From Ruditapes philippinarum (taxonomy: Eukaryota): DNA of 64,000 nt. The notes beneath the pieces are model-generated. The model saw nothing but the letters and a program-made list of their open reading frames with translations. It had not been told where the DNA came from and made no database searches. Positions 33,943 to 60,365 of this stretch are shown one piece after another. The stretch covers positions 124,001-188,000 of the forward strand of contig NW_026853157.1 of NCBI RefSeq assembly GCF_026571515.1, given 5' to 3'. How positions within the stretch are numbered: position 1 is the first letter of the stretch; each line of letters opens with the position of its first letter. The translations under genes were made by a program, and so were the position numbers.

Positions 33943-36900
33943 ATGAGTAATTTCTATACAGCAGCACTTGTTTTTGGAATAACGCTGACTCGTGTATCAG
34001 GTAAGATTTCTCATGTTAGTACATAAAAAGTTATATTTCAACTATATTCTGATCGTCCTTTTCATGTTTTCATGTCTTCTGCAGAAATATACAGTGATAC
34101 TCCATCTTACGGGCACTCCTTTAGTTAGGACATATCGATCGTCAGGGTATCTTCATAAAAACGGACAATATAAGATCTTCTTGATTTGTTATTTTTCGTA
34201 TTAAAATCAACAATACCTGAACTGAGACTATCTTACTTGTAAGCAATACATGATTGAACAAAATGATAATTGAAAACAAATTTATGTCACTATAGTACAT
34301 TTTGAGTAATCGATCAGAATGCGACATTTTTTGCTCTTTTTTTGGTCATTTTCGAGACAACGTGCTAAAAATTAAGCATTTTGATAACTTATTTTGTATA
34401 ATTTATTTATTGTTATCTCGTTTTAGTTACTTTGCAAAGCGTTAAAAAATTCTATCCAGCAGCCAATATACTATAATACAGCAGCCAATATACTATGCAT
34501 ACTACATTAATATATTGCATATTAAACATGTTGAAACAATGGGGAGCAAAAACTTTGGGACAATTTCTACCTTTTACCATTAGCAGCTATAGTATTAAAA
34601 AATTACATAAAAGTTCAACAAATATTGCAACCTACAAGGGAATAATAATATCTGTAAATAATAAAAAACAATCTTGCCACGGTTTTGAATGATCTGCTTT
34701 TGAAAATGAGCTACAAACTCATTTTTATTGGCAGATTACTCAAAAAGTGGTGTATTGGAACACGCAACTGTTAACAGGAACTTGTTTTTATTATGCTTTC
34801 TTATAATAATTCAAAGTTCAAGAAAATTCTTGGCACTTATTTCAACTATTTACCTATGTAAAAGTGCAGTACTATTTGCTATAAAATATCAAATTAGCGG
34901 TTGACTAACTTTGACATATTTCAGACCTGACTTTTTTCTGCGATAAAGTTACAAAATTTTCAAACAATCTATAAAATATATTGACCAATAATCTTTTTTC
35001 TGTATTTACTTAGTCTATATTTACTTAGACAATAACTAAGATGTAGGTGACCTGTTAAAAATGTGGTTAAATGTTTTTACGAAATAATTTTGAGATGACA
35101 GATAGTTAATATTACCATGCACTTTTTAATTTAAATGGTGTAAAAATTAAATGGTCGATATGCGTTATGCAGATTTGAAAAAAGAACAGAAAGAGAAAAA
35201 CAACAACAACGTAGAAGAAAAAAAAAACAAAACAAAAAACAACAACTTTTTTGAGGCCCCAACTGGGTAACCCCGTTTATTTACCCCGTAATAGGTATGA
35301 GATGGTCGGGGTCATCCCCCTCATACCTTACATTATTTATACATGCATATCACATTGTAATATTTACAAATAAATTATCATAAAAATACCTTAAACTTCT
35401 ATCACATTAATTAGAGAAGGTTTACAAATTATCTATTTTACACATGTATGTAAGTTATTTATTTAAAAGAAATACATCACATAAATATAGAATACCAGTG
35501 TAATTTATTCAAGTAACAATCTTACAATTTGCCATCTTTTAATTTCAGAGTCAGTCAAATCTGCATTTTTGTAAATAGTCCAAGCTAATTTTAGGTTATT
35601 TTTAAAGTCATGAAATGTGGGTAGCATTTTTTCTCTAAGACAAATATATGTATTTTCCCCCACAAACTATTAAATTGATACATGTAACTATAGTCCCCTT
35701 ATCAGATAAAAATCTTAAAACGAGGCTATTAATTTAAAATAACGTAACATTGTTCAATCGTTGAAAATGGAAATCGAATATATATTATTAAAGCAACGAA
35801 TTGCTCGTGGTTGAGCTTTATAAATTTGTTGACTTAATTGCAAATATATTATTCATGACTGTTAACTCTGCAGGCTTGGTAAAGAAGTGGCATATGTGCA
35901 TGTCTGCAATTGAAACACTTAATTTTCATGATAAGTGATTGATTCCAATGATTATATTTTTTCAGGTGTTACTTAAACAGATACAATTTTAAGCCAATGT
36001 AATGTGGTTAAACGGCAGCTTGCATTGATCACCCTCAAAATGCCAAGTCTTACCGATTCTAAAATTTTTTCCGTGATGAGCGTTCTTTAAGGCTTCCGTA
36101 TGGTAACCGCCGTATGAACACATCTGCCCATTTTAAATTCAAAAATTATACCAATACCATGAATAAATGTTAAATTCTACTTAAGTCGGTGTCTGGGTGC
36201 ATGGACAGTAACTTGCACTTTCCAGTACCGTCCATGAAAAGCCTCAATCAAACCGTCTCTGCAACATTTTCAATTTTGTCGTTTTGGGCGTTCTTAAAGG
36301 TTCCGTTTTTCTCTATTTTATTACATTCCATTTATTGTATTTGAAATAGAACTTTAAATATTTATACATTTGATGAAATGTTGAAGTATTAAATAATCAC
36401 TTATTTGAAATAAGATCCTTGAATTTATGGAAAAATATTTGTAAAAAGAACTGTTATTTTTTATATAATTTTATGTTCAATGGATTTTACAAAATATGAA
36501 CAAAAAAGAGTTATTATGGCCAACTTTAACCACTTTAATTATGACAATACAATAAATTGTAGTACATGTACATAATGGAATTCCACTGAAGTCCAACAGC
36601 CTAGAAAAGAACCACTGAAATTGGAATCTTTACATAGACCATCTAACGGACTTAAAACAGAAAGATATGCAAAATATAATTGAGAAATATACTCTGAAAT
36701 TAAATTGAAAATCGTACTTTTGTGCTAGCCCGATATTTAGGTAACTTTCCTTAATTAAAATAATTATTCTGGAATAACGGAGTTGTTGGGTGAATTATAT
36801 GAAATTTTGCACACAGTATCAGTAGGTGTGGCAGCTGTAAAAAGTTTTGTTATATTTTTCTGGTCCTTCGGGATCATTGATTTCAGCACTTTTAAGTGTT

Positions 36901-37946
36901 TTAAAATTGAGTACGGTGTCCCTCATGTACAGACTCAATCAAACTGAGTCTGCAATTTTCATGTAATTTTCTTGTGATCAATGCTTTCGAGGGATCACTT
37001 TGTTTCCAGTAACCAGTGCATATTTAAGTGGTCTTCATGAAAAGGTGAAAAATAACAGCTATTGTTTTAGCTATGATATTTACATTGTAGTTTATAATTG
37101 ATATATAACAGTGGCATACAATGACTGTTTCTTTTGCTCAGTTGGTTGTCCTGTTGAAACTTTAGTAAATTGTGATGGTGGTTTATGTACAAAGGCAGTT
37201 GATGACACAGGTGGTAGGTTCCTTTTCTAATTTGTTTTTGATAATTTTTTTCTAGTGTAAATCTAGTACAAAACGTGTATCCTGATAATATATTCATTCA
37301 TGCCAACTGTGACATTCTGCGAAGGAAACGTTTAAAAAAAACAACTATTAGTAAATAAAACAATGTGGCCATACCATGTGACTTTTCGGGTAATCGCATT
37401 TTCGCCATATCTGATAAAAAGCGGTTGAGTAATAAATAAGTTATAAATAAAAACATACCTGAATCGGGTGAAAAACCAACGTGCTCCGTACCCGCAAATT
37501 CACGTGGTATGGCCACATTGTAAAAGGAAAACAGAAAGAAAATACTAATTATTTTCAACTTGTCAAGACATTTCTTTACTCATTATACAAATATTACTTT
37601 TGTGCATTAACAGATGCCATTTGTCTTGGCTAGTATGGAAATCATCTTTAAACATTTTATAATTTCGTTTATTCATTCATTTTTCAAACTTCAAGTTATC
37701 AGCAAAGGATGCATACAAGAGGAAAAAACTGTAGGTTGCACAACGATCAGCGGTAGCAGAACCGTCAAAAACAGCAGCAGCAGCAGCAGCAGTAGCGGCG
37801 GCAGCAGCAGCAGCAGTAAAAACAAAGAAAGACACCTAGTGCTTTGTGTATGTAAAGGACATATGTGTAATGGGAGCATTGCTCACACAACAACAGCAGT
37901 AACATCGATGTTGCCCGTTATTGCCTTCGTCGTGTTAATACTTTGA
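33943..37946 (+). CDS. Ly6/uPAR (three-finger) GPI-anchored protein A, 3 exons: 33943-34000, 37112-37213, 37696-37946
   Basis: GT-AG introns, both phase 1, join to [19 protein letters not shown]|[34 protein letters not shown]|[83 protein letters not shown]. Signal peptide, 10 Cys, terminal CxC...CN and hydrophobic GPI-type tail. Exon layout matches paralogue B. Confidence 0.85.
35245..35700 (-). mobile_element. 5'-truncated L1/Tx1-like LINE relic in Ly6-A intron 1
   Basis: Minus strand reads [34 protein letters not shown]...KRWQIV, similar to the ORF2 C-terminus at 48636-48770 (NGLILNGKHYIYYCR...PSISNFK). T-run at the left end. Confidence 0.55.
37361..37520. mobile_element. 160-bp MITE in Ly6-A intron 2
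   Basis: About 32-bp TIR CAATGTGGCCATACCA(T/C)GTGA.TTT.CGGGTA. Flanked by TAAAA on both sides (37356-37360 and 37521-37525). Confidence 0.8.
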
Positions 37947-39227
37947 TTTATACTACCGCACGTTTGTCACGTTGCTTTTCATTGGATAAACGTGACGTTT
38001 AATACTGCAATTCTGTAACGTCGCATTTCATTTGATAATCGTGATGTTCAAAGCGGCTCGGGTAATATTTTCAAACAACCATTTATATAGGGCCATATAA
38101 CCTGCCAAAAATCTTTATAACTAACAGTATACATGGCTGCTGTCAATTATAATGTTAAGGCAGTAACCTTACGTAATTTCCCAAGACACACTATCGACAT
38201 TTTAAAGTATTGTTTTAACTTTGTGCAAAGTCTTAAAGAACGTAATCATTTTCGCCCCGTTTGAGGTGCCATGCAAGAGTGAAAATGACATTGAACGCAT
38301 AATAGTTGTGAGATGAAGCTGAATAAAGCGAAACATGTTTTGATACTTAAATTTGTGTTGGTTTTTGATCCAATTGTCCTATGTAATATCTGTAGTAGAA
38401 ATACAATTTTATTTTGTTGAAAACCCTATCTTTGTATAACAGTAGCAAACATACTCAGTTTGGATGGCTATTTATTACTGATCGCTGCTTAAAGTGACTT
38501 GTTAACATAAAATTACACGGATAATAAATTGATTTAGAATAACAAAGGAGTTTTTCTTTTGGAAATGATACATATTTCTGTGACTGTAAAACATATCTTC
38601 GAGTTGTATAAGTTTGACTTTTTTAAGAAGATAAGCAGTGACGTACGCAGGCACAGCTTGACAGGGGATCGGTTTCAAACTGGTGACCTTAATCCAATAG
38701 TAAATTGAACCTTATATTAATAATATAAAATTACAAATAAGCTGTTTTCTTAAAGTTATATTGATATATGTATGAATAAATTAATTAATGTTATTTCTGA
38801 CTAAGTCTCATCTTTTTAGTTACAAGTTTTTCACGTAGAAATCATAAAATAACAAAGTTACTGTGGTTTTAACAAAATTAAATCACGGCAAAATGCTAAA
38901 TCATTGTTTTATAATGCCATATAAAGACTTTCAACGAAAATTCATCTTATAGTTATAGAGCTGATTTTTTTTAGAGCAAATGAATTCATACCCAACTAGT
39001 AAACTAAAGGCTAAAAGCCATTATTATTCCAGAAAAAAAAAACAACAACAACAAAAAACATCATAACTGTCTATGCAAAACTATTTCACGTATATTTTGG
39101 AAATACATGTTTATAAAAATGTTTAAAGGAAAACAACAATTAAACGGTCATATTAATATTTCTATGGACGATTTAAGTCAAAGAAGTTTCGAATACTTCA
39201 CTTGGAGAGTCCACATAAGAAAGAGTT

Positions 39228-42313: not shown

Positions 42314-45300
42314 ATGAATTCTTTGGTTATTGTATCGCTCTTTGGAATTGTTCTGGCTCAACTATTAGGTAAGAGAAATGTTTTTAAACTTATTCAGTTC
42401 TTTATCCTTATTCTTTTCTTAAAATTTGATAAGTCTACAATGTGAACATTTTCCGTAAAATTTTCAAATATTGAGAAAAACAATATAATTATATCATTTG
42501 GTTATCTTATTAAGAGTTGTTTGAACAAAATGTTGGCATACTTCTCTTTGACTTAGAATGAACATTTATATGATGAATAATAATATTTTGTTCTAGAACA
42601 TTTTATTATCTGCTATATAATTATATATACTATTTGATCATGTTTCAATATGTCCTTCGTGGTCTGACACTAAATACGTTCAACGAAATTTTTCATTGTA
42701 TGACAAACGTTTTCTTATAGACCAATTCACGTTAAGTCTCGAGATAATAAAAATATTTTTTATCTGAGCTCTGTGTCAAGTCGTTCAGTATACATTATAA
42801 TAATTATACTAGTTTCTGGCCGATCTGGTACCCGCGATCTGAGTTTAAGCTTAAAACATTAAAATTTTTAGAACTTCTGACCAAGCACTTAGACGTCATA
42901 GTTGAGATGCAAAGGAAACACTCTTTTATTATCCAGTTGCCAAACGTTTTTAATTAATGGTCACAAAGGAATATGTTTTGTTAAAACAGGATCACGAGTA
43001 AATGTTTGTGTTCCTTTTATCCATCTCGTAGACACGAATCTATCCTTTGACTATTTAAGGCTCGGTCACACCGCAAGAACTTTGCTGGAGCGTTCCTGGA
43101 GCGGTGAAAAAAAAAATCATCACCGCTCGTTACCGTTCACCAGAAGTTGGCCCCCGTTAAGGCAACGCCGTATACGCTCGGTCACCGCTTATGGTCCCTC
43201 CTACCGCTCCGAAAGTTTTGAGCTGCACAAAATATTGCGAGCGGTGAGGAGCGGGAAATATTCCGCTCCGGCAAAGTTCACCACCGCTCTGACAACGCCC
43301 AGTCAAAGTTTGGCACCGCTAGACGCAAGTTCGTGAAATTTTGAACGCTGGACCACCACAGCTTTACCCAGGCGGTGATTAAACGTTGTACAAACTTTGT
43401 CAGAGCGGATTCAAGCATTTAACGAGCGGTCTCGGGATTGCTCGAACGGTGTCAGGCGTTGAAGCAGCGGTCCATTGCGGTAATAAACTTTGGTTTGGCG
43501 TTGGTATGGAGGTGTCATCGCTAAACCAACGCTCGCTACCGTTAAGCCAAAGCTATAACAACGCCAACTGCAGCGGTACACCGCTAAGGCAACGCCCGTG
43601 TTTTCGATTTTTTTTCCCATTTTGTGCGCGGTAACGAGCGTTGTCTATTTTTTGTCCCTCTCCCTACCGTTTAAGGAACGCTACAACAAAGTTCGGGCTG
43701 TGTGACCAGGCCTTTATCTCCAACCACGTGACAGCCTCTTGATTTTCCCCCACATTTTATTATCTCGTAGACACGATTAACCTTTTGATAATTTGTTTTC
43801 TTGTGTAACAGAACTTGTATTATACCAATTATTTATTTTCTTAATGCGTAAATAAATTAATATTCAAATAAACTTAATACACATGCATTTTGACAGATTG
43901 GCGTAGCGACACTTGTTTTCCCTATTGTATAGATGCTTTATTTGTGAAAGTTATCCTGTCTAATTTATGGTAATTTATGGTAATTTATGTAAATTTACAT
44001 TTGCGTTCTATTGACTGTCCGCCTGAATAAGATGGAATTAATTTATTATAAAGTGATATCTGTAATAACATAGCATAGATAAAATTACTTTACTTGTGCA
44101 CAATACAATGATTACAGTCAACATGTCAATGCATCCATTTTTTTTCATGACAGTTCACTTCATGAATATTATTGAAGTTATTTAAAGTAGATTGGTGTAC
44201 AAGGCGCACATTTTCCATATTTATTTAAAATATTGATAAAAACAGTAAAAATTTACAATTCTGATAATGTTACGAAATACTTTTGAAAAAAAAAAAATGT
44301 CGAGTTTTAAAGTGACTTATTATGAATATATATATGATGAGTAATAATATTTTTTCTAGAACAATTTATTATCAGCTATATATATATTTGTTGACAAGTC
44401 ATATCGGATCATGTATCTAACACTAACAAACAACATCCATATATAATTATTTTGCGGTTTGTTTTCAGGTATGATACTGATTACTATCAACATAATTATT
44501 ATTTATGGTATTACAGACTATTTCACTTTAAAATATACTCTAATATCATGAATACTAGGGACCGCTAACAATATATTGCTATTTGCACCAGATTTATGTT
44601 CATAGTGACTTGTCTAGTCTACAAATCACACTCTTTTCTAACAATGGCCTATCCTCAACGCCAACGTAGATAGAAAATAATAGTTAATAAAACTGGTTTG
44701 TAATTTTAAATTAATTTACTAAATGCATACCTTAATTAAAGCGTGTAAATTTAAAACTTGATTTACGAGGCAACTCCTGTCACATCATTTGCATTGCTCA
44801 ATATATCTTTTTTATTAATCTTATTTTAAGATGTTTAATGTAATGGCTTGTTTGAAGATATTTAAACATGATACAAGGTTAAAGTTTATTTGAGAATAAA
44901 AATGGTTATGAAAGTTGTAAATGGAGAATAATCACATGAACACAATTGACGCAGTATGTCTATACTTATAAATGAAATATCGAGAAATATTGATTAAAAA
45001 AAATGCGTATTTGTTCTGTATTTTTAATGTAAAAAAATATTTTTTCACTGCAGTGAAACATATATTCCGTATTTCCACTGGTGTCATGTCGGACTACTTT
45101 CTTTTAAATTTAACCAAAACACAAAGTTTTTGGGGTAGTTATTCAAATTGTAATGTCAGAAAGAGAAACGTGCATATAACAAACAGAAAATTCAAGTTTT
45201 TTTTCCATAAATTCAGGATTTATTTTAATCTTGTGATTTGAAAACTTTTATATTTCACTCGTGGCTGCCACCGCTCATGAAATATTTATTTTCATACAAT

Positions 45301-48300
45301 TCGATGAAAAAAAATCCTCTATTTATCGTAAAATACTGAAATGTCCTCTATATATATGATATAAATATATTTTTCTATCATAGTTTGGCCGATATAACTT
45401 CGATATAAACGGTTCATTCTATCATTCCATTGTGTTATTTTTAATGATAAAAAGTTGAAGCGGTTCTGTCTTAAATACAATTCATCGATGATCGTTTANN
45501 NNNNNNNNNNNNNNNNNNNNNNNNNNNNNNNNNNNNNNNNNNNNNNNNNNNNNNNNNNNNNNNNNNNNNNNNNNNNNNNNNNNNNNNNNNNNNNNNNNNN
45601 NNNNNNNNNNNNNNNNNNNNNNNNNNNNNNNNNNNNNNNNNNNNNNNNNNNNNNNNNNNNNNNNNNNNNNNNNNNNNNNNNNNNNNNNNNNNNNNNNNNN
45701 NNNNNNNNNNNNNNNNNNNNNNNNNNNNNNNNNNNNNNNNNNNNNNNNNNNNNNNNNNNNNNNNNNNNNNNNNNNNNNNNNNNNNNNNNNNNNNNNNNNN
45801 NNNNNNNNNNNNNNNNNNNNNNNNNNNNNNNNNNNNNNNNNNNNNNNNNNNNNNNNNNNNNNNNNNNNNNNNNNNNNNNNNNNNNNNNNNNNNNNNNNNN
45901 NNNNNNNNNNNNNNNNNNNNNNNNNNNNNCAAATAAAATAAATAATAAATAAACTTTAATCAGCAACGACAACAACAAGAAACAGCAGCAGCCAGAGAAA
46001 CAGCAACAACAACAGTAACAGTAACAAAAACAACAACATTACCATCATTATGAAACTCTTGATTATAGGGTTCAGTGAAGTAATGTTGTGTTATAAAACT
46101 TGTATTACAATATTTATTTTCTTAATGCGTAGATAATTTCAAATTTGAAATACACTTATACACCTGCATTTTCGCAGGTAGGCACATCAACACATGTCTA
46201 CCCTTAGGGGTAGTTACTGCATTTATAAATGTTATCCTGTCTTATTTATGGTTATCACTATAAATAAAATTTCGCATTTTATCATTCATTAAACAGGAAA
46301 TATTAATTAAATTAAGTAACTGGTTATTAAAATATATAACTACAAAGGTTACTGGGCATATTTAGCCTTATATAAAAATCTTCACTTTTATCAAGGCATA
46401 ACGATTTTGTGCATATCTAACATAAAAACTCGTACTCGCTCGTTTTAAATTAATTTTCTGGCAATTTACTTTTTAGTTAATTACTTTTAAAAACAAATTG
46501 TGAAAGTAATCATCTTGTGAACATTACAAATTACTTTCTAAAGTCGAATAATTTTTTTTAATAAACAAATATTCAAATATATAAAAAACAATTCATATTA
46601 TTTAATGGTTTAAGTTTCATAAACGTCTGCGCTAAATGATTGTATCTCCTGGTTTTATATCATATAAGTTATGACCGTTTCGCAACAATCCTACATATGA
46701 ATTCGTAAGGTACTATCGCTAAATCGTTATACGTTATAAACTTTCAGTAATCTAAAATAAATAGCTTTTTAAGTTATAAAAACCAACTATGTGAAAGTCG
46801 TTTTCGTATCTTTATTTAGTGATTTCAATTTTGGCGCAAATATATCCAGTTTCTTTTTTTCCCGGCATGCTTGATGTATCAAGGTATACGTCCTCCCCAG
46901 TCATATATATATATATATATAATATATAAAATTACAGTATATTTTAACTTACTCGCCATGTAAAATGTATCTTCTTTTAAAAGTTAATGATCGTATTTTT
47001 TTTAGCTTTAGAAGGTAGCTGTTTGTTGGTTTGCATATTTGTTATATGTGTATATACATGCAGTTGTCATAACCATGATATCAAACCGATTTTCTCACTA
47101 GATTAATTAACTCTTCATTTTACATTTGGAACACCTCGCCGATAATTTATAATCTTTATCTCGAAACTGACGGAAAGAACCTAAACGTTGCGACTGCTCA
47201 TTTTATTTAGAGATACTGCTTATTTTGTTTATCTTATAACAAAAAAAGCAAGATATTTGCATGCTAAATTTTAAAATATTGTATCAAAGAATGTATCTTA
47301 AGGAGCCAGATCTTTTTTTTTTGTAATTAACATTTTATTTCCCATATTGTACAAAACATGTAACAGAAATATTTTTTGGTCAATATAATGTATTGGCAAT
47401 CAATAAACAGTCAAAACTGTGTCAAAACCACCAAACTAATTTTTCATTTTCATAACAAAAGCCACCCTTACTAACCCTACAGTGCTTAACAGATAGAGGT
47501 TTCTCTTGATAAAGACCTCTTCTTGTCTATAGAGGAAATGTTATATTTCTCCTCTGTAAGACCCTGGTCACAGGTTTGACTGTAATCATGCATCAAAGTA
47601 CATAGTCAATACAAATTCAATACTCTCAATTAAAGCCAAAATTAATCAGTACACATACAATGGTTTTAAATGGAGCCATATTAATCAGTACAAATATACT
47701 ATTAATCAGTCCAAAAAGAAAACCCCAACAAAACAGTCTCGAAAGAAGCAATATTAATCAGTACCAATATAATGGTTTCCCACGAAATTATATTAAACAG
47801 TACCAGTACCACATTAACCAGTACAAATACAATACTTTCAATTGAAGCAACATTAATCAGTACACATATAATAATTTTAAATTAAGCAATATTAATCAGT
47901 GCAAATACAGTAGTTTTGGATGAAGCAATATTAATCAGTACAAATACAACTGTTTTGAATGAGACTATATTAAGCAGTTCGAATACAATAGTTTCAAATG
48001 AAGCCATATCAATCAGCACAAATACAGTAATTTCATATGAAACCATATTAATCAGTACAAATACATTGATTTCAATTGAACCTGTATTAACCATATCATT
48101 TGTACATAACTATTATCAATATTGCTTTATTCTGATGCAGTAGAGAGAATTCTAAATCAATCGAGGATTTTCATATTGTACAGTGATTTTGAGAAGAGGA
48201 AAGGAAAAAAAAAACATTCCTTCCTCCCCCTTTAATAATATTTAGAGTTTTACTCTATAGCTTGAAGTAATGTAATAATGAATGCTTAAATTTAAATACC

Positions 48301-51300
48301 ATATTTAAATTTTGTACCTATGGGATAAATATGCTTTTTAAAGAAAAAGGATATAAAAAATGGAGAAAATAAAAAGGGTTCGGTGAAATCTACTAGAAGG
48401 GTTTTTATCTCAGATTCAAATCTGAAATTTCAAATAATAGGGAATTTTAGATTTTTTTTGGTGGTGTCTCCCGGTGCCGCAGCAGTGACGTGCAAAGTTG
48501 TAGAATAATAATACATGACTTAAACTTCATTAATACACAGAATACACAAACACTATTCTAAATTTACTTGGTTTTTGTTTTTCTGCCCTGATGTCTGAAA
48601 CAACTCATATGTATCATTCTGTTTAGCTATGTATTCTATTTTTCAATTTTATATCTGGCATATATTTGAGTTTTAAAATTAGAAATAGAAGGCCTTATTT
48701 GTTTAACTCTACAATAGTAAATGTAATGTTTTCCGTTTAAAATCAAACCATTTAAGACTTTGTCATATTTTGTATTACCAAAAAGAATGTCAGTAACATT
48801 CCAATCATCACAAGTAATATTACATTTATCTTTGACATAATTTTGTAATATTCTCCAAAAGTTTTTGACAATTTCACAATCATAGAAAAGATGAATAAGA
48901 GTTTCACTCTCAGATTTACAAAAAGTGCATATATCGTTATTTACAATGTTCATTTTTTTCAACAAATAATTTGTGGCAAGTATTCTGTGGTTCAGTCTAA
49001 ACTGGAACCAGATTATTTTGAATCCTTTGTAAATTTATATGGTAATTCATATATTGAATTAAATTGAAACTCTGTTTCTACAGCCTCTGTTAAATCATTT
49101 TTCCATTTCAAAAGAGAGTTAGGATATTGTCCGGTTTCAATCATAGTTTTATAAATCTGTTGGCAACCTTTTTTATCATGAAGAATTATGCCTAGTGTTT
49201 GAGGAATATGTACATTATACTTATATTCCTTAGGTAGATCTCTGGCATGAATTCTTTCTAAAAACTCATTCAGTGCTCTAATAATCCCCATATATTCTAG
49301 AAAGTTGCTTCTTATGTTATATACTTCATTAAATTCATTGAATGAATAAAAATCACCTGTCTGACTGATTAAATCACCTAAGAATAGGACTCCTCCATTA
49401 ATCCATCTAGTTAGATGAACACAAGAATTTCCAATTTTTATGCCAGGGTTGTACCATAAATTAATAGAGTAAAATTCTTTACTTGTTTTTGGCTTAACTT
49501 TCATAGAAAGACTCATATAACTTTTCATTACATCTTTCCAAAAAGGATTTATATCACAACTTAGTTTTGTTTTTATGAAATCTGTTCCATACTTAAAAAT
49601 ATTATGTATACAAGGCAAAGTACTTTCTACCAACTGACTATATTTATTGTCATTATGAACAATACGTCTTAACCAAGTCAATTTTAAACTATTCATAAAA
49701 CAGCTCAATTCTACCATTTTAAGGCCACCGTATTTATAATCTTGAGTAATAATAATTCTTTTAACTTTATCTATACCATCATTCCATAAAAATTTGTAAA
49801 ATAAACTTTGAATTTTATTGATTTTTTCAGTAGGTGGATTAGGGATACTTAAAAAAAGGTGGTACAATTTTGCCAAGGCCAAAGACTTTATAACTACTAA
49901 TTTTCCTAATGGAGAGATTAGTCTTTTGGACCATGAAGCAAATAATCTTTTTAATTCCTCAATTTTTAAATCAAAGTTTAAATCTACAATTTGTTTCAGA
50001 TCTGTTGAGAATTTAATACCTAATACTGTAAAAACTTCAGTGTTCCAATCTAGATTGTAGTCAGGACAAAGAACTACTTGGCTATTTCTGTAGGAGCCAA
50101 ACCAGACTACTTTGGTTTTTTCCATATTAATGTTAAGGCCTGATATCTCTGCATAGAATTTTAAAACTTCCATGGTATTCTTTAAAGATTTGGCTGTGCC
50201 ATCTAAAAATATACTAGTATCATCAGCATACTGTGAAATCTTATACTCTTTCTCATTAATTATAACACCTTTGATATCTTTGTTTTTTCTTATTAATATT
50301 GACAGTACCTCTGCACAAATGATGAACAGGTATGGCGATAGGGCATCACCTTGACGAAAACCTCTTTGAAGTTTGAACCAGTCTGACATGTGGCCATTTA
50401 TAATAACACATGATTCTGTATTAGTATAGAATAACTTGATCCAACTTCTAAAAGAGGGACCAAAATTAAAAAATTCTAGTACATGATGCATAAATTTCCA
50501 AGAAACAGTATCAAACGCAGCGGCAAAATCAATTAGTAATAACAATCCTGGAATATTATATTTTTCAGAGTGAAATAAGATGTCATATAACATTCTAACA
50601 TTTGACGCCATTAATCTACCAGGAAGAAAACCAGTTTGATCATGATTTATGATTTTATCTAAGGCATTTTTTAAACGAGATGCAATTGATGCGGAAGCTA
50701 TTTTATATGCTACATTTAGAAGAGATATTGGTCGCCAATTTTTAAGTAATAGCTTATCCTTATTTCCTTTTGGAATACAAGTTATTACCCCTTGTTTCTG
50801 TGTTACTGATAACTCACCAACTGAATAAGCATAATTAATTGACCTGACTAAAAATATACCAATATCAGACCAGAAAAATTTGAAAAATTCTGTGGTAAAT
50901 CCATCGTTACCGGGACTTGTACCATTTGACATACGCTTTAGAGAATTCAACATTTCTTCATAAGTTAAAACACCTTCAATTTTTTGTTTGTCTTGTTCAG
51001 TAAGTTTTTGAATATCTTGATTTTCTGCAAGTAGACTAGTTAAAGAAATATCACTGGTTTCTCTTAAGTTGTACAACCTTTCATAATGATTCTTTGTTTC
51101 TTTCAAAATTTTTTCTTGTGTATTTAAAATTTCCCCTTTGACATTTTTAAGCGAACTCATAACTTTGGAGACAAAATTTCTATTTTCGAGGTTACAGAAA
51201 TAACGAGTTGGCTTTTCACCTTCATTAATCCACTTAGCTTTTGATCTTACAAGTACACCATCCATTTTCTTTTTCCTCAAATTTGAAAGTTCTAATCTTT

Positions 51301-54300
51301 TGTTTTGCAATATTTCATAATTTATATCTTGTTCTTTTTCTATTTTTTCTATTTCACTTAAAATAACTCCCTCTTTATCTATGTCTTGTTTTTTCCTATA
51401 TGATGAATGCGATATTGTTATTCCTCTAATATTCATGAGTAAAGTTTCAAAAAATAGTTGTTCATTGATATTGAAAATTAAATCCTGTGCTGGGATTTCA
51501 TTTAATTCATCTAGATTTTCTACAATATTAGTTGAGTATTGTCTTTTAGTTTCCGAGATGACTTCTTTTACCTTAACAATGTAAGCCTCATCACGTAAAA
51601 GGGAATTGTTAAATTTCCAGTAAGATCTCCCTTTCCTAAATTTTCCAAATTCTAAGCACATATAAATTAATGAATGGTCGGTTCGATACCCTGGTAATAT
51701 TTTTGTACAGTCAACTTCAGTATATAACTGATCTGAAATAAGAAAGAAATCTAAACGTGCTTTTTTATTGGATTATGCCTAAACCATGTATATTCTCTTT
51801 TTTCTATGTTATTTTCACGCCAGACATCGATTAAATTTAACTCTGAAATAATAGAGTGAACTTTATCCCGAGCATTGGGATTATTCAAATGTAAGTAATT
51901 TTGGCAATCTACTTCTTGATTAAGCACTAAATTAAAATCCCCAGCAAGAATATACAAAGAATTTTCATATTTAGAAAGTCTGTCCAAAATTGAGTCATAA
52001 AACTGAGGAGTATCTTTATTTGGTCCATATAAGTTTACTAGTGTTATGTCTTTTTCACATATTTTACAATTAAGGATAAGTAAATTACCATCATTATCTT
52101 TTTCAATAGCATTTACGTTACAATCAAAATTATTATTAATAAATATGGCAACTCCACGTGACTGGGTATTGTAATTGGAAAAATAAGTTTCATATCCCCA
52201 CGTTGAGCGTATAAAATGTTCTTCTTGACTTGAGAAATGTGTATCTTGCAACATGCAAATAGAGTATTTTTTACTTTTAAGAAAATTTATGACATCTCTA
52301 CGCTTTGCCCTATCAGCCATACCCTGAACATTCATTGAAATGATTGATACCTTATTTGTCATAATAAATAATTAAAATACGCTAATTCGTATGCTTTAGA
52401 TATTGTCATGTAATTACAGTAGCACCATTTACTACTAAGAACAGTTGAAATAAAATCAATAACCTTTAACTTTGCATACCCACAACTGTGCACCACACTC
52501 CCATCAACCCCAAGAGACACCCACCATAAGACAATTCTTTTTTTAATTAAATTCATTAAAAGGATATGGACATTTACTGAATTTTGGAAAAATTGCATAA
52601 AAAGTCATTATCTTATACAGAGAAAACTAGGCATCAGTACTACTTTACAGGTACTTGCCCAAAAAATATTTCATATAACAATATCCAAGCAGAAGGTTAT
52701 TTACACTTCTGCTACAATCTAAACAAAAAGTGAACACAAAATTACCTTATAATATTACATGCTGTGCTACACGGATATCTTTGCTTCCCTTAGTTTTGAC
52801 TGTTTTCTTCAATTCGCTGCAAGAAAAAATCTATCACAAAGTAACGCGTTCATTCATAAACAAAGTAAAGAAAATTCTTTAGGGCTTTTAACTTACACAA
52901 CATTAAGATGTCGCATACTTTATAAAAATTATGAATAAATAAAATAGATTATATTTCATTTACAACCTTACTGATGTCGATGATTAAATTCATTTCTTCG
53001 CGATTTCATATGACAAAGTTATATAATCGGGGCCATTAATCTCGCGGTATCACTAAACTCGCGGTGTTTACAAAAGCGCCACCTAGCCGTTGTAAACATA
53101 AACAATCGTGACCCGATTTCTTCACGCTTACAAAAGAAATATTTTTCATCAACATGCCGCCAATTTGGGTAAGTAAATATACACAATTAATAATATTTTA
53201 ACGTTTTCAAACAAAACTATCAATAATTTCACTCACATGTTCCTGAAAATAACCCAAATCCAACAATGACATCCATCGTCTGTCAAACAACTGAGGCTCA
53301 AAGTGCTAAATTTTATGCAAATTAAGTAGACTGTGTCCAGGCCACTAAATTTGGTGTGAAACCACTAAATATTTTCCATCATTAATATATTTCAACAAAA
53401 ATTAGCTTTACTTATTTGAGTTATTTCCTCTGGGATAAGTTATATTATTTTTTTTTTCAGGACTTAAAAGTGAAAACTATCACCGATAGACAAAAGCCTT
53501 ATGATAGGGAAAATTTGCAAAGGGCATACCAGGCTTACCTTAATGGAGCATCAGTGTATAAAGCCTCAAGGATGTTTGGGGTGCCAGAGAGCACTCTTAG
53601 AGATAGAACAAGAAATAATGTTGCCATTGATTGCTGTTTAGGGGCACCACGTCTCTTCAGTGAGGCTGAAGAGAGACAGCTAGTCCAACATATTGTTTAT
53701 ATGTCGTCTATAGGTTATGGTTATGGCTCCAGTGAACTCCGAGTTATATCAGCAGATTATGCCAAGTCAATTGGAAACTTAACATTAAAAACTCCCTAAG
53801 TAAAGGATGGGTGCAAGCGTTCATAAAGAGGAACTCGGATGAATTAAAAGTTGTGAAACCACAGAAGTTATCCTTAATCGAGCAAAGAATGCCTCAGCAG
53901 AAGTTATCAAAAACTACTTCAATGAGCTGTCCACAGTATTAAGAGAAAATGACCTATTAGACAAACCTCAAAAATATATACAATGTTGATGAGAGTGGAT
54001 TCTCAACTGAGCACAGACCTCCAAAGATTGTCTGTGGAAAGCAGTTTAAGCCCCAATGTGTGGTATCAGAAAAATCAAAAAATGTTACAGTAATTGGATC
54101 TGCTAATGCCATTGGAAATCATATACCCCTTTTTATGTCTTCCCTGGAAAACGCTGGATTGATGAACTTCTTGAAGGTTGTGCCCCTGGATCTGATGGAG
54201 ACATGTCTGAGAGTGGGTTTGTAAACCGTGGGCTGTTTGAGTCATACATGATAACCACTTTTCAAAGCATGTCAATCTTAGAAATGATACTAAGATTATT

Positions 54301-57300
54301 GTTTTATATGATGGATGCAAAGCACATATCTCCTTGACTTTAACAGACTGGGCAAAAAAAAATAATGTTATTCTCTTTGTACTGCCGCCACACTTCATCT
54401 CATCTTACACAACCCCTTGATGTTGGCATATTTGGCCCTATGAAGCGCCACTTTTACAGTGAATGCAAATTATATATGCATGCCAACCCAGGACGGTATA
54501 TTTCCAGATATGAGGTTGCAAAAACTGACTGCCAGGCCATATGCTAAGGCTTTTTGCCCTGACAATATTATACATTCTTTTAAGAAAGCTGGATATATCC
54601 CTTTAATCCAGATGTGATATCCAATAAGCAAACTGCTCCAGCAGAGATATACCTATCAGAGCATGCTCCCTGCACAACAGAGGTGGAAAATGTAAGTTCA
54701 CAGGTTATTAATAGTCCTGTTGAAACTGCTTCCCCTGAAATATCAACTCTTGAAAAAGGAAATCAATTCCTCAAAAGTAAAAAAATCACAACCACAGTTG
54801 TAAAATCAAGACCAAAGAAAAAATCTATTCCTCCAAAAAAAATTATTGGAAATCTTCATTCTGAAAAAAATCAGGAGATTCTTAAAGAAAATCATGACAA
54901 ATCAGGAATTAAGAAAACACATCAGGCAAATAGTCTGAAATCTGAAAAGACAAAAGTAAATGCAAATGTTAGTCAAATAAAAACTAACCCTAAACCATCA
55001 ACATCAGGACTAAATAGTAACAAAGGTGGACCAATAAATCTTGATGAAAGCACTGAAAGTGAGGACTCCTCTTTAGAAGATGATTCTGAGCCCTGTTGCC
55101 AGTGCAAAAATTCTTTTACACCACATTTGAAAGGATATCCAGGTCTGGTAATCCTTAAGTGGGCTCAATGTGACACATGTGGTCACTGGGTACATCTCAC
55201 ACACTGTTGTGAAATATCAAGTATCAGAAGAGGTGTCAGTTTCTTCTGCAAATGCTGTGAATAAATTAAGACTGTCTGTTAAAAATGCAAAAGTTTTTAT
55301 GTTATTGTTGTTGAATTTACTAGTTAACTTGTTGTGACAATGATATGATTTGAAGTTCTTCCTGACTTAAAAAAAATAGTTGTTTTTAACCTTGCAATAG
55401 ACAAATGTGCTTGTATACCAGTCTACCGCGAGTTTAGTAGCCTCCCCTGATTGCAAATGGCTGCCACAATATGACATTTGGTGACCTAATTAAACTGTTA
55501 CTGAGTGACTTCTTCGTTGTACGAATGTGTCATTTTGAAGAAATTGGATGAAATTTAAAGTTTCTGAAAACTATTAGATTTGGTAAGTTTATTTACATAA
55601 ATTATTCGTTGTAAAAGCGTTATTGCCGCGAGATTCGTGGCCCTCGGTATACTATGCATAATTTCTTACGAATTACCGTTACATAAATAAAGAGATTAAT
55701 ACCACAGTGAACCAATAACTAGAATATGCGCTTTATACTTATCTAAAGTTATTGCTAACGGCCTTTTCCTCTTTTTTTCAATATATCCCTTCAATGTCAT
55801 GGGCGCGGCCATTACTATTTACACACGATGCGTGATAAATTGACGTCATAGTTCAACAGAGGTTAGCAGACGGTCATGTGACGAATTTAGAGTTCGTGAC
55901 CTATCAATCGACTTTGATTGGTTAATAAGTTCCCGCGTTTCTTAAAATAGAAAATCTAAAACGCGTCACAGCCATTAGAAAGCCAATGAAACCCGTGTAG
56001 CACTGGTAAACAATAACAAACCCACGTGTTGTTCAATTGACAATAACAAAACCACATGTTATTCAAATTGTCTGAAAAAAGGAAGAAAAAACCCAAACAA
56101 TATAAACAATTAAATGAAGGGGAACAAGTTTTAAGTTATCTGCAACATAATATCAAATGAGCTGCCATGTCTTTCTCATTACACTATCAATTAAATATTA
56201 TGGAAACTACAGCTATTTTACATAAATTTGCACACACACAAACAACAACAACAACAACAAAAACAGTATAATTATATCTGATGAACTGTTTTCGTTAGTA
56301 AACTTGACTATCTGTCCAGAATGAATATCAATCGTTTTAAATTCCAGTTGTTTCAGACTGACACAAGTTTATCTATCAATATCATTTAAAGAAATCAACT
56401 GTCACCCACAACACTTTATACACTTTTAGAATATAGTTACTAAACCTGAAGTACCCTTAGGAGTGGAGAATCTGGTTGTTTTTCCAATGGTGAGTGCCTT
56501 CGATCCTGGAGGGGGTATTTCAATAGCCACTTTGTTAAGCTCTTCTATACTACGGAGGGCGATCTTTCGATTGTCTTTAAGCATGAAGTAAAGCAATAAT
56601 TTTCCCTTCATGGCTCCATACAGATTCCACTTTATCATTGTAATCAAGTGCATCAGATAGAAGTTTTGCGTTATGATGGATGAGATCCTCACGAATGCTT
56701 TTGCCAGAGTCTTTCAAGTTTCGTCGGGCTCGTATGATGTCAAATTTTGTGGTTCGTCTGACAAATTTAACAAGAACCGGCCTGTGACTCTTTGCATCGA
56801 ATCTTCCTAATCTGTGGCAAGCATCTATATCTGAATTTGAGAGGGTTTTCTGTAGTTTGTTTTGAAGAAAAGTTAGAACCTTAGCCAAAGTATCTGTGTC
56901 TTTCTCATTAAATTCGTCTTCTAGCCCATATATGCGTACACTATTGCGGCGTGTATATTGTTCCAGTGCATTGTTTTTCTCTTCTAGCGCTCTGAGCTTT
57001 AGCTCTCGATCATTTAGTCTTTCTTCTAACTTGTCGTTCTCCTGCTTGAGGTCCTTAACCTTTCCATAAAGACACATGTTTTCTTCGTTTATGTCCAAAA
57101 TATTGTTTCTAAGTTCAGTTATCATAGTTGTCATACCCGAAACATGGTCAGATAGAACTTTTACCTCATCTTTTATAACATATACTTCTTTCATAACCTC
57201 TTTTGTAACTTCATCTCTAATCACAATTTTCATATCTTCTAGCTTTTGATCCATGAGGTCTGCTGTCAACATTCCTTTTAGTTTATTCTCTATATACTCC

Positions 57301-60208
57301 TGGGTCACCAGAGTGTTTATAGTTTCTTGCATCTTTCTCAACATATCTCTCTCTGATAACTCTTCTAGCTCTGCATAAGACTTTATATGCTTATCAAGTG
57401 TCTGTTGCCCAACTTGTTGATCATGTTTCTGCCCTTTCTGTGGTTTCGTTGGTTTAGGACTTTGTGCGACGGAAGCGACGGAAGCTGAATCTTCATCAGT
57501 TCCCTTGTGCGTTTTCTTTGAATTCGACCGTGTACTCTCTTTAACCATTTTCATTATTTATTTTCAGTTAACACTTCACGATAATGTATTGTACTCCAAT
57601 AATGTAACACAGTGTGTATTAATAGTGTGTATTAAATTGATAGGTGCATTTATATCTTTCACGAAAACCACGTGCTAAAAATCTACCTGTCCATTGTTCT
57701 TCAAATAAGCCTTAAGGAGCCAGATCTAGTACAAACAAATTGCAGTATACGATTTAAACTACATACATATTATAAAACAGACTTAAATAACCCTTTTTAT
57801 GTTTTAATTGTATTCAAAGCAAGCATGTATGAACAAGCTATGTCCATGGATATTACGTTTTACTTTTGTCAGTGCTGTATAGTATAATAAAATCAAAGTA
57901 GACAATTTTGCGAAAATGCAAACTTACTGCCATTGACAGTGAACAAGTTTTAAATTGATAACTTAAGTAATTTTAAGAGAAAATGTTAACTGAGTCTTTG
58001 TGTCGAAAAGGGGCATAAATGAGCAACATTGAATAACGCAAGTACAAATACAAGTCTCAAATTTTAAAAGTATTCTAAGCCTAAAGTAAAAAGTTGAATA
58101 TTGCTCATTAAGACGGTGCAAAGATGTGTGGACGATAGCTTGCATTAATCACTTCTTTCCATGAAAGGGATCAATGAAATCTCTTTTGTATTTTGAAATT
58201 GCATTCATTATATTTTAATAGTGAAGATAATATATGAATTAAAAGAAAATTCAATTGCAGGAAATTGTGTAAGGAATTTGTGTAATATTTGTAACATTAA
58301 ATTACATCTATAAGGAATAGTATTGTTGAATCAATCACGTTATTTCTTTAATTTACAATACTATCAAATGAAAGCTAAAACATGCTGAACAGTTTAAATG
58401 AGAGAAGTGTCATATCCTTACAACTTATGATATAATACTCATTCTCGGTAGGTCCTTTTATCGTAATGATCGAAAATATGCAACGAAATTCTTGTACACC
58501 ATGTTTCTTATTACAATATATCAATCACAACTGTCATACTAAACATTCCTCCTAGTGTGTGTTCTTTTTCAAAATATAATACATGGAACGATTCTTTACG
58601 GGGGATAGATTAGTATATGACAAGACATCACTTTCATAATAAAAGCAAACATTAGGTTTACATGACAGAAGTAAAATGTTCACATGCGTTTTACTCCTCA
58701 TTATTATCATGTGATTAAATTTTTTCTCATTATATAAACTGGGTTTGGTTAGATTATGCAAAGGATTTAAGATATTAAAAATTTTAAGTGTGGGAAAAGT
58801 TATGTAACTAACTTTTGGCCTGGTGGTGAAGGTGTCTGTAACTACTTTAAGCCTTCTGTGGATACCAGTACTGGTTGTTTAAAGGTTCAGACTTTAGAAT
58901 GGTTCAAATAAGGTGTTAACCTTCTCTACAAAATAGGGCTAAAATAAACATTTTACAATAAGCAATAAGCATACTTTTAATGAACCCAAACTTATATTAA
59001 CACACTTTTGTGTAGTTGCAAAACTTATCATGCTTGTCTGGTTTAATGAAATATAAGTACATGAAGTACAAGTGTTTCATGCTTATATCATTATTTTGAA
59101 AGGTTTAAACAAGCCAATAGACATTGCAAACGACCATTTATATACGGCCATAAAACGTATCAGGAATTTTTATATCGAATTTATTATACAGGTAACTTCC
59201 TTTTTAGAGGATAAAAATGTGATTTCTTCGTTGATTGAAAGCTGCCTTGTATATAAGATTATACGAGTATAAACGTCACGACTATCCAGTGAAAAGCGAC
59301 ATTACAACCTTAGGTAAAACTGGTGGTCTCAATACATTACATTATAATGTATACATAATTATCAACGAACGATAATTGGTCTGAATCTTAGTTTCGTTAC
59401 AACCACGTTGCCACCGATGACTATAGAACTGGTTAGTCCAGTGAACGATTGAAACTTGGTGCTGAATAAATTGGAAATCAGAGTTAAGACATACAGAATA
59501 ACAAAACTAAAATACATGTATATCATAACAATAAAACATATAGAGTGTTATAAAAATATTATATACACATCCATGTATATTGATGATATAATTTATATTT
59601 TACAGTAGTTGACGGTTTAAAGTGCTACACCTGCTCAACAAACTGTGGCGCAGACACTGATAATCTAAATAAGGTAGACTGCAATGGTGGATTTTGTACA
59701 AAGACTGCAGATCAGAATGATAGTAGGTTTTTTTCTCTTTCTTCTGTTCTTGAACTCCTTAAGTATAAAGGCAATTCATACATTGAAAAATAAGAAGTGA
59801 GTATTGTACCTTAAAAACATATTGATTCAAGACAACTGTAAAAACTTTGCGAAAATGTTCTTGAATGAAAATTTATAATAAGAATTTGTACGGAGGAAAC
59901 TGAACTATATCTCTTATGAACGACATTTTCGTTGCCAATAATGCAAAATTGTTACATTAACATATACAATCATGTTCAAATGAGCTTCAAAAATTGTTAT
60001 TTTAAACAATTTATTTTTCATACTTATAGCTATAATCAATCGGGGCTGTTCGAAAACGGCAAAATCTGCTGGATGTAGCAACACCAACAACTTGAGAATA
60101 TGTGTATGTAACGATGAGGATCTGTGTAACGGAAGTAGAATGCAAACAGCCACAGCAACATCTACGATCTTTCTCGTTATTGTCGCCATTATGCTTACAG
60201 TTATGTAA
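42314..60208 (+). CDS. Ly6/uPAR (three-finger) GPI-anchored protein B, 3 exons: 42314-42368, 59606-59722, 60030-60208
   Basis: Phase-1 GT-AG introns join to MNSLVIVSLFGIVLAQLL|VVDGLKCYTCSTNCGADTDNLNKVDCNGGFCTKTADQND|TIINRGCSKTAKSAGCSNTNNLRICVCNDEDLCNGSRMQTATATSTIFLVIVAIMLTVM*. Canonical LKCYxC start, RGC, CxC...DLCN, 10 Cys, GPI-type tail. Exons 2-3 are strong. The link to exon 1 crosses 17 kb and an assembly gap and is inferred. Confidence 0.82.
43058..43713. mobile_element. PIF/Harbinger-type MITE, 656 bp
   Basis: About 40-bp imperfect TIR (AGGCTCGGTCACACCGCAAGAACTTTGCTGGAGCGTTCCT vs AGGCCTGGTCACACAGCCCGAACTTTGTTGTAGCGTTCCT). TTA TSD at 43055-43057 and 43714-43716. Internal ACCGCT/AGCGGT motifs. 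Confidence 0.85.
45499..45929. other. Assembly gap (431 N)
   Basis: Run of N. Confidence 1.
47610..48095. repeat. 39-bp minisatellite in the LINE 3' UTR
   Basis: AAGCAATATTAATCAGT(A/G)CAAATACA recurs with a 39-bp period (e.g. 47884, 47923), about a dozen degenerate copies. Confidence 0.85.
48636..52362 (-). pseudogene. LINE ORF2 (APE endonuclease, RT, C-terminal Cys/His zinc knuckle), split by two frameshifts
   Basis: EN: SMNVQG, LQDTH, SRGVAI, NLYGPN, GDFN, then RLDFFL...TDH after a frameshift at about 51760. RT: GEKPTRYF, PGNDG, NWRPISLLN, DFAAAFD, RQGDALSP, QYADD. Frameshift at about 49015, then WFQFRLNHRIL...CTFC...ETLIHLFYDC. Confidence 0.93.
53022..55651 (+). mobile_element. pogo-superfamily (Tigger/Fot-like) DNA transposon nested in the LINE inter-ORF spacer
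   Basis: TATA at both ends (TA TSD). 26-bp imperfect TIR TATAATCGGGGCCATTAATCTCGCGG vs TATACCGAGGGCCACGAATCTCGCGG. Perfect 14-bp subterminal inverted motif ACTAAACTCGCGGT at 53052-53065 and 55425-55438. Confidence 0.88.
53154..55264 (+). pseudogene. pogo-type transposase: HTH_psq, CENP-B-type HTH, DDE_1 and C-terminal PHD finger; one intron (53169-53460); several frameshifts
   Basis: MPPIW|gtaagt...ttttcag|DLKVKT joins in frame. ASRMFGVPESTLRDR (psq HTH). Catalytic motifs NVDESG (about 53985), LYDGCKAH (about 54305), HLTQPLD (about 54405). C-terminal CCQC...WAQCDTCGHWVH..CC...FFCKCC. Confidence 0.88.
56426..57554 (-). CDS. LINE ORF1 (coiled coil, RRM, CTD; L1-type), probable frameshift near the 3' end
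   Basis: Heptad-rich region, then LEQYTRRNSVRIYGL, DIDACHRLGR, RPVLVKF, IREDL, WSHEGKI. The main ORF stops at 56577 and an overlapping frame continues KDNRKIALRSIEEL to 56426. Confidence 0.88.
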
Positions 60209-60365
60209 ATTATATGAACCATCACGCTTAAAGATGTGTAAATGATATGAGCCTTCACGCTTAAAGATGTGTAAATGATATGAACTTTCGTGCTTAAAGA
60301 TGTGTAAATGATATGAACTTTCGTGCTTAAAGCTATGTTAATTATATGGACCTTCATGCTTAAAG
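60190..60365. repeat. 33-bp minisatellite overlapping the Ly6-B stop codon and 3' UTR
   Basis: GCTTAAAGATGTGTAAATGATATGA recurs every 33 bp. The first unit is the coding end GCTTACAGTTATGTAAATTATATGA. Degenerate units continue to about 60525. Confidence 0.85.

What the first reader, a model, noticed from the sequence alone, without database searches (positions are those of the whole stretch)
33943..60208. Two spliced Ly6/uPAR three-finger genes hidden from the ORF track
Seen: two three-exon genes with the same layout (signal-peptide exon, 5-Cys exon, 5-Cys plus GPI-tail exon; all introns phase 1; donors GTAAGA then GTAGGT in both). The domains are compact and quite divergent from each other while keeping the Cys spacing (NCDGGLCTK vs [20 protein letters not shown] vs CVCNDEDLCNGS). 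Established: this pattern defines Ly6/uPAR proteins such as Lynx1, CD59, Drosophila quiver/sleepless and C. elegans ODR-2, which regulate receptors, channels or complement. Small divergent exons like these are easily missed by annotation.
Basis: partly seen in the sequence, partly recalled or inferred. Interest (0 to 1): 0.7.

Follow-up and report, generated by a model that had tools for sequence, protein, structure and literature searches.

The report
Two ordinary clam Ly6 surface genes
Two neighbouring Manila clam genes have the classic layout of small three-finger (Ly6/uPAR) proteins, predicted to be tethered to the cell surface and likely to bind and tune another membrane protein; one is already catalogued without a name, the other has an unusually long serine-rich finger and is not yet shown to be expressed, and both belong to a large, ordinary animal family.

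Summary
Observation confirmed. Both three-exon models are open, GT-AG, phase 1, with ten cysteines, a CN motif and hydrophobic ends. Gene B's spliced product is identical to RefSeq XP_060578219.1 (Ruditapes philippinarum, 'uncharacterized'). One contig of a probable RNA run shows its 17-kb first junction. Its mature domain folds confidently (pLDDT 92.7), and the top 39 of 50 listed structural matches are three-finger folds. Gene A was not found in the protein collection, showed no listed junction in 7 runs, and carries a 35-residue serine-rich stretch between cysteines 7 and 8 (8 in B). It may be tissue-restricted or decaying. The genome holds at least 40 related last exons on 15 contigs; molluscs average 83 such proteins (PMC13719153). 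No partner was tested. This scan noted similar pairs before in scallop and octopus DNA. Verdict: new members of a known family, low interest.

The parts
33943..34000 (+). Gene A exon 1, predicted signal peptide; phase-1 donor GTAAGA
   Evidence: only candidate in 30700-37100; hydrophobic core; aligns with B exon 1
37112..37213 (+). Gene A exon 2, Cys1-Cys5 of the LU domain; donor GTAGGT
   Evidence: single copy in the assembly
37696..37946 (+). Gene A exon 3, Cys6-Cys10, CN motif, predicted GPI signal, stop
   Evidence: hhalign to the family profile, probability 95.5
37772..37816 (+). In-frame (CAG)n microsatellite giving a serine-rich insertion between Cys7 and Cys8 (finger 3) of gene A
42314..42368 (+). 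Gene B exon 1, predicted signal peptide; phase-1 donor GTAAGA
   Evidence: (X9 contig joins 42368 to 59606)
47297..57727 (-). LINE-type retroelement with 17-bp target duplication and a nested DNA-transposon remnant; about 10.4 of the 17.2 kb of gene B intron 1
59606..59722 (+). Gene B exon 2, Cys1-Cys5; donor GTAGGT
60030..60208 (+). Gene B exon 3, Cys6-Cys10, CN motif, predicted GPI signal, stop; first AATAAA at 60369

Best explanation
These are two tandem three-exon Ly6/uPAR genes of the Manila clam whose products are predicted to be GPI-tethered, disulfide-locked three-finger proteins on the outer cell surface that likely bind a neighbouring membrane protein (receptor, channel or adhesion molecule) through their variable fingers and tune it. 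Shown: exon structure, open frames, cysteine pattern, B's identity with a RefSeq model, and B's first junction in one contig. Predicted: the three-finger fold (B's domain only), signal peptide and GPI anchor (by hydropathy and pattern; no SignalP or GPI predictor was on hand). Inferred from the family: disulfides 1-5, 2-3, 4-6, 7-8, 9-10; removal of the tail and GPI transfer at or near the N-G-S after Cys10; binding of a membrane partner. B is likely a working gene. A is likely its old tandem duplicate, whose finger 3 grew by a microsatellite and which is tissue-restricted or under relaxed selection (about 60% that it makes a protein).
For: Layout matches the archetypal LU gene: three exons, phase-1 introns, GPI signal in exon 3, 10 Cys, Asn after Cys10 (PMC6600238, passages; sequence). 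B equals XP_060578219.1 letter for letter. Junction 42368/59606 in an X9 contig. 10 of 13 members of B's homologue alignment match Pfam QVR and 6 of 13 match CD59 at E<=0.1. A profile of that alignment finds CD59 at E 2.5e-7, then LYPD3, SLURP1 and BMPR1A. Atlas neighbours by features score 0.91-0.93 and are Ly6, QVR, CD59 or activin-receptor clusters; the nearest structure cluster is mostly Mollusca, TM 0.71. AF2 model of the 73-residue domain: pLDDT 92.7, pTM 0.81, six strands. VIA-align ranks 1-39 of 50 listed are three-finger folds: irditoxin Z 8.2 (rmsd 2.7, 64 aligned), GPIHBP1 7.6, C4.4A 7.5, PSCA 7.0, CD59 7.0, Lynx1 6.8; the first unrelated row is Z 2.9. Tails of 24-25 residues after CN are hydrophobic to the end with 0 charged residues in the last 15, which fits GPI rather than a stop-transfer helix. 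Paralog last exons show purifying selection, dN/dS 0.43 over 12 pairs.
Against: No binding partner, tissue or localisation was tested. B itself scores below every Pfam cut-off (Toxin_TOLIP E 4.7), and Foldseek gave 0 matches at E<=0.001 (best 0.016). The full-length model was poor (pLDDT 65) and matched no three-finger fold. For A: no junction listed (4 runs; depth 0-6, alike over exons and flanking introns); the joint list was cut (15 shown, 115 hidden); no database protein; of 11 listed read differences in exon 3, 9 change the amino acid and 2 do not, no better than neutral for 130 N and 41 S sites, though the sample is small and mixes individuals. The tree did not join A with B.
Confidence: 0.78

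Rival explanations
1. B is a working Ly6 gene but A is a decaying, silent duplicate whose microsatellite insertion is drift.
For: No junction listed for A in 7 runs, only sparse unspliced reads; absent from the protein collection at 45-2000 aa; mostly amino-acid-changing read differences; long branch, 0.83 against a median of 0.19.
Against: All 10 cysteines, all four splice sites, the signal-like exon and the GPI-like tail are intact although A and B are far diverged. None of the 11 listed exon-3 differences is a stop or removes a cysteine. Only 4-6 in 100 of each raw run was read, and tissues are unknown.
Confidence: 0.35
2. The proteins are CD59-like shields against complement or pore-forming attack on the clam's own cells.
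For: CD59 is the best solved-sequence match of the family profile and among the fold matches (Z 7.0); large tandem families are typical of immune genes (own knowledge).
Against: CD59 is tied with many other three-finger folds. Schistosome CD59-like proteins were tested three ways and do not inhibit complement (PMC3812095, abstract). Paralog exon 3 shows dN/dS under 1 overall, so no sign of diversifying selection in that exon.
Confidence: 0.12
3. They are neuronal modulators of nicotinic receptors or Shaker-type channels, like Quiver/Sleepless and Lynx1.
For: QVR is the commonest Pfam family among B's homologues (10 of 13), and the first Atlas cluster is named 'Protein sleepless'. QVR/SSS acts on Shaker and nAChR through loop 2 (PMC4735452, abstract).
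Against: The genome's QVR-profile hits (15 rows, 2 over the cut-off) do not include C1644, so A and B are not its closest quiver-like genes. Automatic names carry no functional test.
Confidence: 0.2
4. They are accessory subunits or co-receptors for the four intronless rhodopsin-type GPCRs that lie head-to-head with gene A.
For: The nearest GPCR frame begins about 3.2 kb from A's ATG on the opposite strand. LU-7TM fusions exist in molluscs (PMC13719153, section 5). C. elegans ODR-2 acts in olfactory signalling (recalled).
Against: 0 of the 14 other contigs with family exons appear among the 150 best-scored of 645 candidate relatives of this GPCR, so the neighbourhood does not recur; with that many GPCR genes, chance adjacency is plausible.
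Confidence: 0.06

Closest known systems
Single-domain GPI-anchored Ly6/uPAR (LU, three-finger) proteins, e.g. CD59, PSCA, Lynx1, GPIHBP1 (PMC6600238)
   Same: Three exons with phase-1 introns, signal exon, 10 cysteines, Asn after Cys10, GPI-like tail in exon 3, small tandem clusters, predicted three-finger fold.
   Different: Only 16-31% identity over the structural alignments of ranks 1-39; C-x-C rather than the adjacent CC of many vertebrate members (recalled) before the last cysteine; A has a 35-residue serine-rich loop between Cys7 and Cys8.
Quiver/Sleepless family (Pfam PF17064 QVR) and related invertebrate LU proteins
   Same: Commonest Pfam match among B's homologues (10 of 13); Atlas neighbours 'Protein sleepless' and 'crooked'.
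   Different: A and B score below the curated cut-off (A exon 3: 12.1 bits against 27.3; B: no QVR hit) and are not among the genome's QVR hits. No orthology shown.
Trematode Ly6/CD59-like families (SmLy6, FgLy6; PMC8763315, PMC3812095) and starfish Lystar proteins (PMC11595613)
   Same: Lineage-specific multigene families of single-LU proteins that meet the same screening rules (10 Cys within 120 aa, C-x-x-C, C10-N, signal peptide, GPI).
   Different: No orthology tested. Their functions are unresolved or differ (not complement inhibitors in schistosomes; an integrin-like target suggested for Lystar5; abstracts).
Snake three-finger toxins
   Same: Same fold; best single VIA-align row is irditoxin, Z 8.2, tied within 1 with GPIHBP1, TEX101, C4.4A and AMHR2.
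   Different: A and B end in a hydrophobic GPI-like tail after CN; the toxin chains listed are 57-77 residues and are secreted (recalled). Nothing suggests a venom role.

Membership tests
Ly6/uPAR (LU domain) | Ten cysteines within 60-90 (at most 120) residues, C1-x-x-C2 at the start | tested here: met
   A: Cys 25-111; B: Cys 25-90; both C-x-x-C (criteria)
Ly6/uPAR (LU domain) | Asn directly after Cys10 | tested here: met
   CN in both
Ly6/uPAR (LU domain) | Three-exon gene, phase-1 introns, domain split over two exons | tested here: met
   B junction 1 in one contig; A's junctions not shown by reads
Ly6/uPAR (LU domain) | Three-finger fold | tested here: met
   B's domain only: pLDDT 92.7, ranks 1-39 three-finger. 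A was not folded; its exons match the family profile
Ly6/uPAR (LU domain) | Disulfides 1-5, 2-3, 4-6, 7-8, 9-10 | not testable with these tools
   Model coordinates were not returned; connectivity is inferred from the family
GPI-anchored single-LU subclass | [quoted passage not shown] | tested here: inconclusive
   Hydropathy and pattern fit (best 9-residue N-terminal mean 2.4 and 3.0; tail 24-25 aa, best 12-residue mean 3.2-3.3, uncharged), but no SignalP or GPI predictor and no experiment
Quiver family (PF17064) | Score above the Pfam gathering cut-off of 27.3 bits | tested here: not met
   A exon 3 alone 12.1 bits; whole B no hit at E<=10; whole A could not be scanned
Quiver family (PF17064) | Regulation of Shaker channels or nAChRs | not testable with these tools
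   No assay
CD59 | Score above the Pfam CD59 (PF25152) cut-off | tested here: not met
   No CD59 hit for B; 6 of 13 homologues match at E<=0.1
CD59 | Inhibition of membrane attack complex assembly | not testable with these tools
   No assay
Secreted three-finger toxins | Secreted domain ending at or just after CN, without membrane anchor | tested here: not met
   24-25 residue hydrophobic tails follow CN
TGF-beta/activin receptor ectodomains | Transmembrane helix followed by a cytoplasmic kinase | tested here: not met
   Stop codon directly after the hydrophobic tail in both genes; RefSeq B is 116 aa

The most novel reading that the evidence does not exclude
Gene A is a working Ly6 protein whose third finger has been turned into a long, microsatellite-encoded serine-rich (possibly glycosylated, length-variable) loop, and A and B serve as co-regulated accessory subunits of the four-gene GPCR array that lies head-to-head with them, a linked Ly6-GPCR module in a bivalve.
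Probability: 0.05. Interest if true: 0.55.

Novelty: new member of a known kind. Interest (0 to 1): 0.2.

Why it matters
Modest. It names one uncharacterised RefSeq protein, adds one probably unannotated gene, and shows a clam family of at least 40 last exons of which the two members scanned here fall under Pfam's cut-offs, so profile-based counts of mollusc three-finger proteins may be too low. Finger 3 of gene A is a natural test of how much a microsatellite can lengthen an LU loop. It opens no long-standing question until a partner is found.

Tried and rejected
Run search: no RNA holder listed on record for 59590-60260. Twenty contig runs from 11 studies hold 0.34-0.43 of its words, near the 0.449 expected from exons alone, but none was laid on that stretch, so this is not counted as evidence. 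First lay (33700-42600) was swamped by intronic repeats. Full-length AF2 model of B (pLDDT 65): Foldseek and VIA-align gave no three-finger match, signal and tail helices dominated; replaced by the trimmed domain. Alignment A3 misplaced the exon-2 rows and was not used. A hidden intron removing A's serine-rich insert: four in-frame GT-AG pairs exist, but the acceptors are purine-rich (pyrimidine share 0.21-0.29), so rejected. Further copies on contig C1644: none in the 246 kb outside the window; one exon-2-like motif lacked splice sites. Second copy of A: none by protein or DNA search. Tree of 27 joined clam models plus 8 outside proteins: three supported clam clusters, A and B unresolved outside them. 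Diversifying selection in paralog exon 3: not seen (dN/dS 0.43; 0.50 without cysteines; 12 pairs from 33 of 40 exons with standard spacing). Recurring Ly6-GPCR linkage: not seen. No complex prediction was run, as no partner is claimed. Literature searches listed no paper on these genes or this clam family; the supplement of PMC13719153, which lists sequences, could not be read and may contain B.

Full report
Observation. Gene A (33943-34000, 37112-37213, 37696-37946) gives 136 aa and gene B (42314-42368, 59606-59722, 60030-60208) gives 116 aa. All introns are GT-AG and phase 1, with donors GTAAGA and GTAGGT in both genes. Cysteine spacings are 2,3,7,4,13,8,35,1,4 in A and 2,3,11,4,14,8,8,1,5 in B, each ending in CN and a 24-25 residue uncharged hydrophobic tail. 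Exon 1 is the only candidate for A and the only clearly signal-like one of 2 for B, and the two align with each other. 0 of 100 shuffles of the window gave both an exon-2 and an exon-3 motif, against 2 and 2 observed.

Source and annotation. The window is G000:C1644:124001-188000 of a 1.41-Gb assembly. B's last exon found one protein among 5 candidates, P0001, identical to the spliced model and labelled by its source 'uncharacterized protein LOC132735293 [Ruditapes philippinarum]', XP_060578219.1. A's last exon found nothing at 45-144 aa and 0 of 103 candidates at 145-2000 aa, so A is probably unannotated; the collection may be incomplete.

Expression. One contig of run X9 (RNA is the tool's guess) leaves the window at 42368 and continues with letters equal to 59606-59635, 30 of 30, with 255 loose letters in all. 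For A, 7 different runs were laid. In one search repeats filled the tables (15 joints shown, 115 hidden). In one search (X21, X22, X2, X8) no joint was listed; raw reads covered exons and flanking introns alike at depth 0-6, which looks like DNA or pre-mRNA background. Only 4-6 in 100 of each raw run was read and tissues are unknown, so silence is not shown. Of 11 listed read differences in A's exon 3, 9 change the amino acid, 2 do not, none is a stop and none removes a cysteine (31 further rows were hidden). Against 130 N and 41 S sites this gives no sign of constraint, but the sample is small.

Fold and family. B alone is nearly invisible to Pfam (Toxin_TOLIP E 4.7; A exon 3 QVR E 0.42). phmmer over 1.84 billion representatives gave 18 proteins at E<=0.001, 17 besides B, all weak (E 5e-5 to 9e-4); those with names come from nematodes, crustaceans and a crinoid. 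Of 13 aligned members, 10 match QVR and 6 CD59 at E<=0.1, and the profile finds CD59 (E 2.5e-7), LYPD3, SLURP1 and BMP receptor ectodomains in the PDB. The Atlas places B among Ly6, QVR, CD59 and activin-receptor clusters (0.91-0.93), with a mostly molluscan cluster nearest by structure (TM 0.71). The full-length AF2 model was poor and matched nothing relevant. The 73-residue domain folded at pLDDT 92.7. Foldseek gave no match at E<=0.001, but its listed rows are almost all three-finger proteins (best E 0.016). VIA-align ranks 1-39 are three-finger folds (Z 8.2-3.2), with the first unrelated row at 2.9. A was not folded; its two exons match the family profile (probability 44 and 95.5).

Family in the genome. 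Three single-protein searches and a pattern scan of 104 fetched loci gave 40 intact last exons on 15 contigs, 39 with a phase-1 acceptor, and 28 middle exons with phase-1 sites. This is a lower bound: 17 hits were not fetched as new loci, some of them at places not otherwise held. It may also include alternate haplotypes. Clusters of 3-9 lie on C4071, C12998, C15778, C10375, C4709 and C8527. A and B are the only copies found on the 310-kb contig C1644. A's best match among 27 joined models is B (130 against 83); B's best is a C3558 gene (149), with A at 130. Only A and B of 28 middle exons use the GTAGGT donor. The tree leaves both unresolved outside three supported clusters, so their origin as a tandem pair is inferred, not shown. 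The Cys7-Cys8 gap is 8 in 36 of 40 exons, 9 in 2, 12 in 1 and 35 only in A, where it holds a 15-unit CAG repeat. Twelve close paralog pairs give dN/dS 0.43 in the domain part of exon 3.

How it likely works. By the family's established biology (PMC6600238, passages), exon 1 sends the chain into the ER, five disulfides lock a small beta core with three loops, and the exon-3 tail is swapped for a GPI anchor, probably at or near the N-G-S after Cys10 (inferred). Such proteins use their loops and concave face to bind other proteins (same paper). I commit to a surface-tethered binder that tunes a membrane partner (0.78 for this reading as a whole; about 0.6 that A makes a protein). The partner is open. 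Ion-channel modulation as in Quiver/Sleepless (PMC4735452, abstract) is possible, but A and B are not among the genome's 15 QVR-profile hits. A CD59-like role is weakened by the schistosome precedent (PMC3812095, abstract). An adhesion partner was suggested for starfish Lystar5 (PMC11595613, abstract). The head-to-head GPCR array is suggestive, but 0 of the 14 other family contigs appear among the 150 scored of 645 GPCR candidates.

Novelty. A 2026 survey found three-finger genes in all 387 invertebrate genomes examined and 2086 in 25 mollusc genomes, 83 on average (PMC13719153, abstract and section 5; supplement unreadable). Trematode families are screened by the same rules that A and B meet in sequence (PMC8763315, passages). 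Seven literature searches listed no paper on these genes. This scan's notes record similar tandem pairs in scallop and octopus DNA (unchecked), and one note led me to the survey paper. The finding is real and ordinary: new members of a known family, with one small oddity, A's microsatellite finger.

Noticed in passing
window 7402-9276, 18274-19620, 25192-26367, 29559-30692 (- strand): Tandem array of four intronless rhodopsin-type GPCR frames, 72-91% identical to each other and at most about 50% to other genome copies; the two scanned match 7tm_1 and weakly Srw. One has a 132-bp tandem repeat (5.5 copies, 7832-8558) expanding a probable cytoplasmic loop.
   Followed up: partly
window 47297-57727 (- strand): LINE with ORF1 (56577-57557), endonuclease (51751-52371) and reverse transcriptase (49013-51772) frames, a poly(A) tail and a perfect 17-bp target duplication at 47297-47313 and 57711-57727; L1/Tx1-like by recall, not tested.
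   Followed up: partly
window 53052-55438 (+ strand): DNA-transposon remnant with 14-bp inverted ends, an HTH_psq frame (53386-53799) and a cysteine-rich end (54584-55264), nested between the LINE's ORF1 and ORF2.
   Followed up: partly
window 10136-13789 (- strand): Broken LTR-retrotransposon remnant in several frames, BEL/Pao-like by recall, between the first two GPCR genes.
   Followed up: no
window 60191-60365: 33-bp tandem repeat (5.3 copies) starting at the end of gene B's coding region and filling the 3' UTR up to the first AATAAA.
   Followed up: no
window 36076-37009, 37350-37535, 42556-42595: Short intronic repeats heavily represented in RNA runs, with reads that skip or go back, likely miniature inverted-repeat elements.
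   Followed up: no
G000 C4071, C12998, C15778, C10375, C4709, C8527 (loci L002-L104): Clusters of 3-9 related single-LU genes with the same exon layout; some hits carry stops (L060, L062, L085, L100), suggesting birth and death.
   Followed up: partly
L038:2945-4018 (G000 C1644 about 32.9-34.0 kb): Intronless 358-aa frame that looks like a WD40 protein, perhaps a retrocopy; not scanned.
   Followed up: no
L039-L040 (G000 C1644 about 48-53 kb): Frames resembling a DIRS-type element (reverse transcriptase, tyrosine recombinase, SGNH-like), by recall; not scanned.
   Followed up: no
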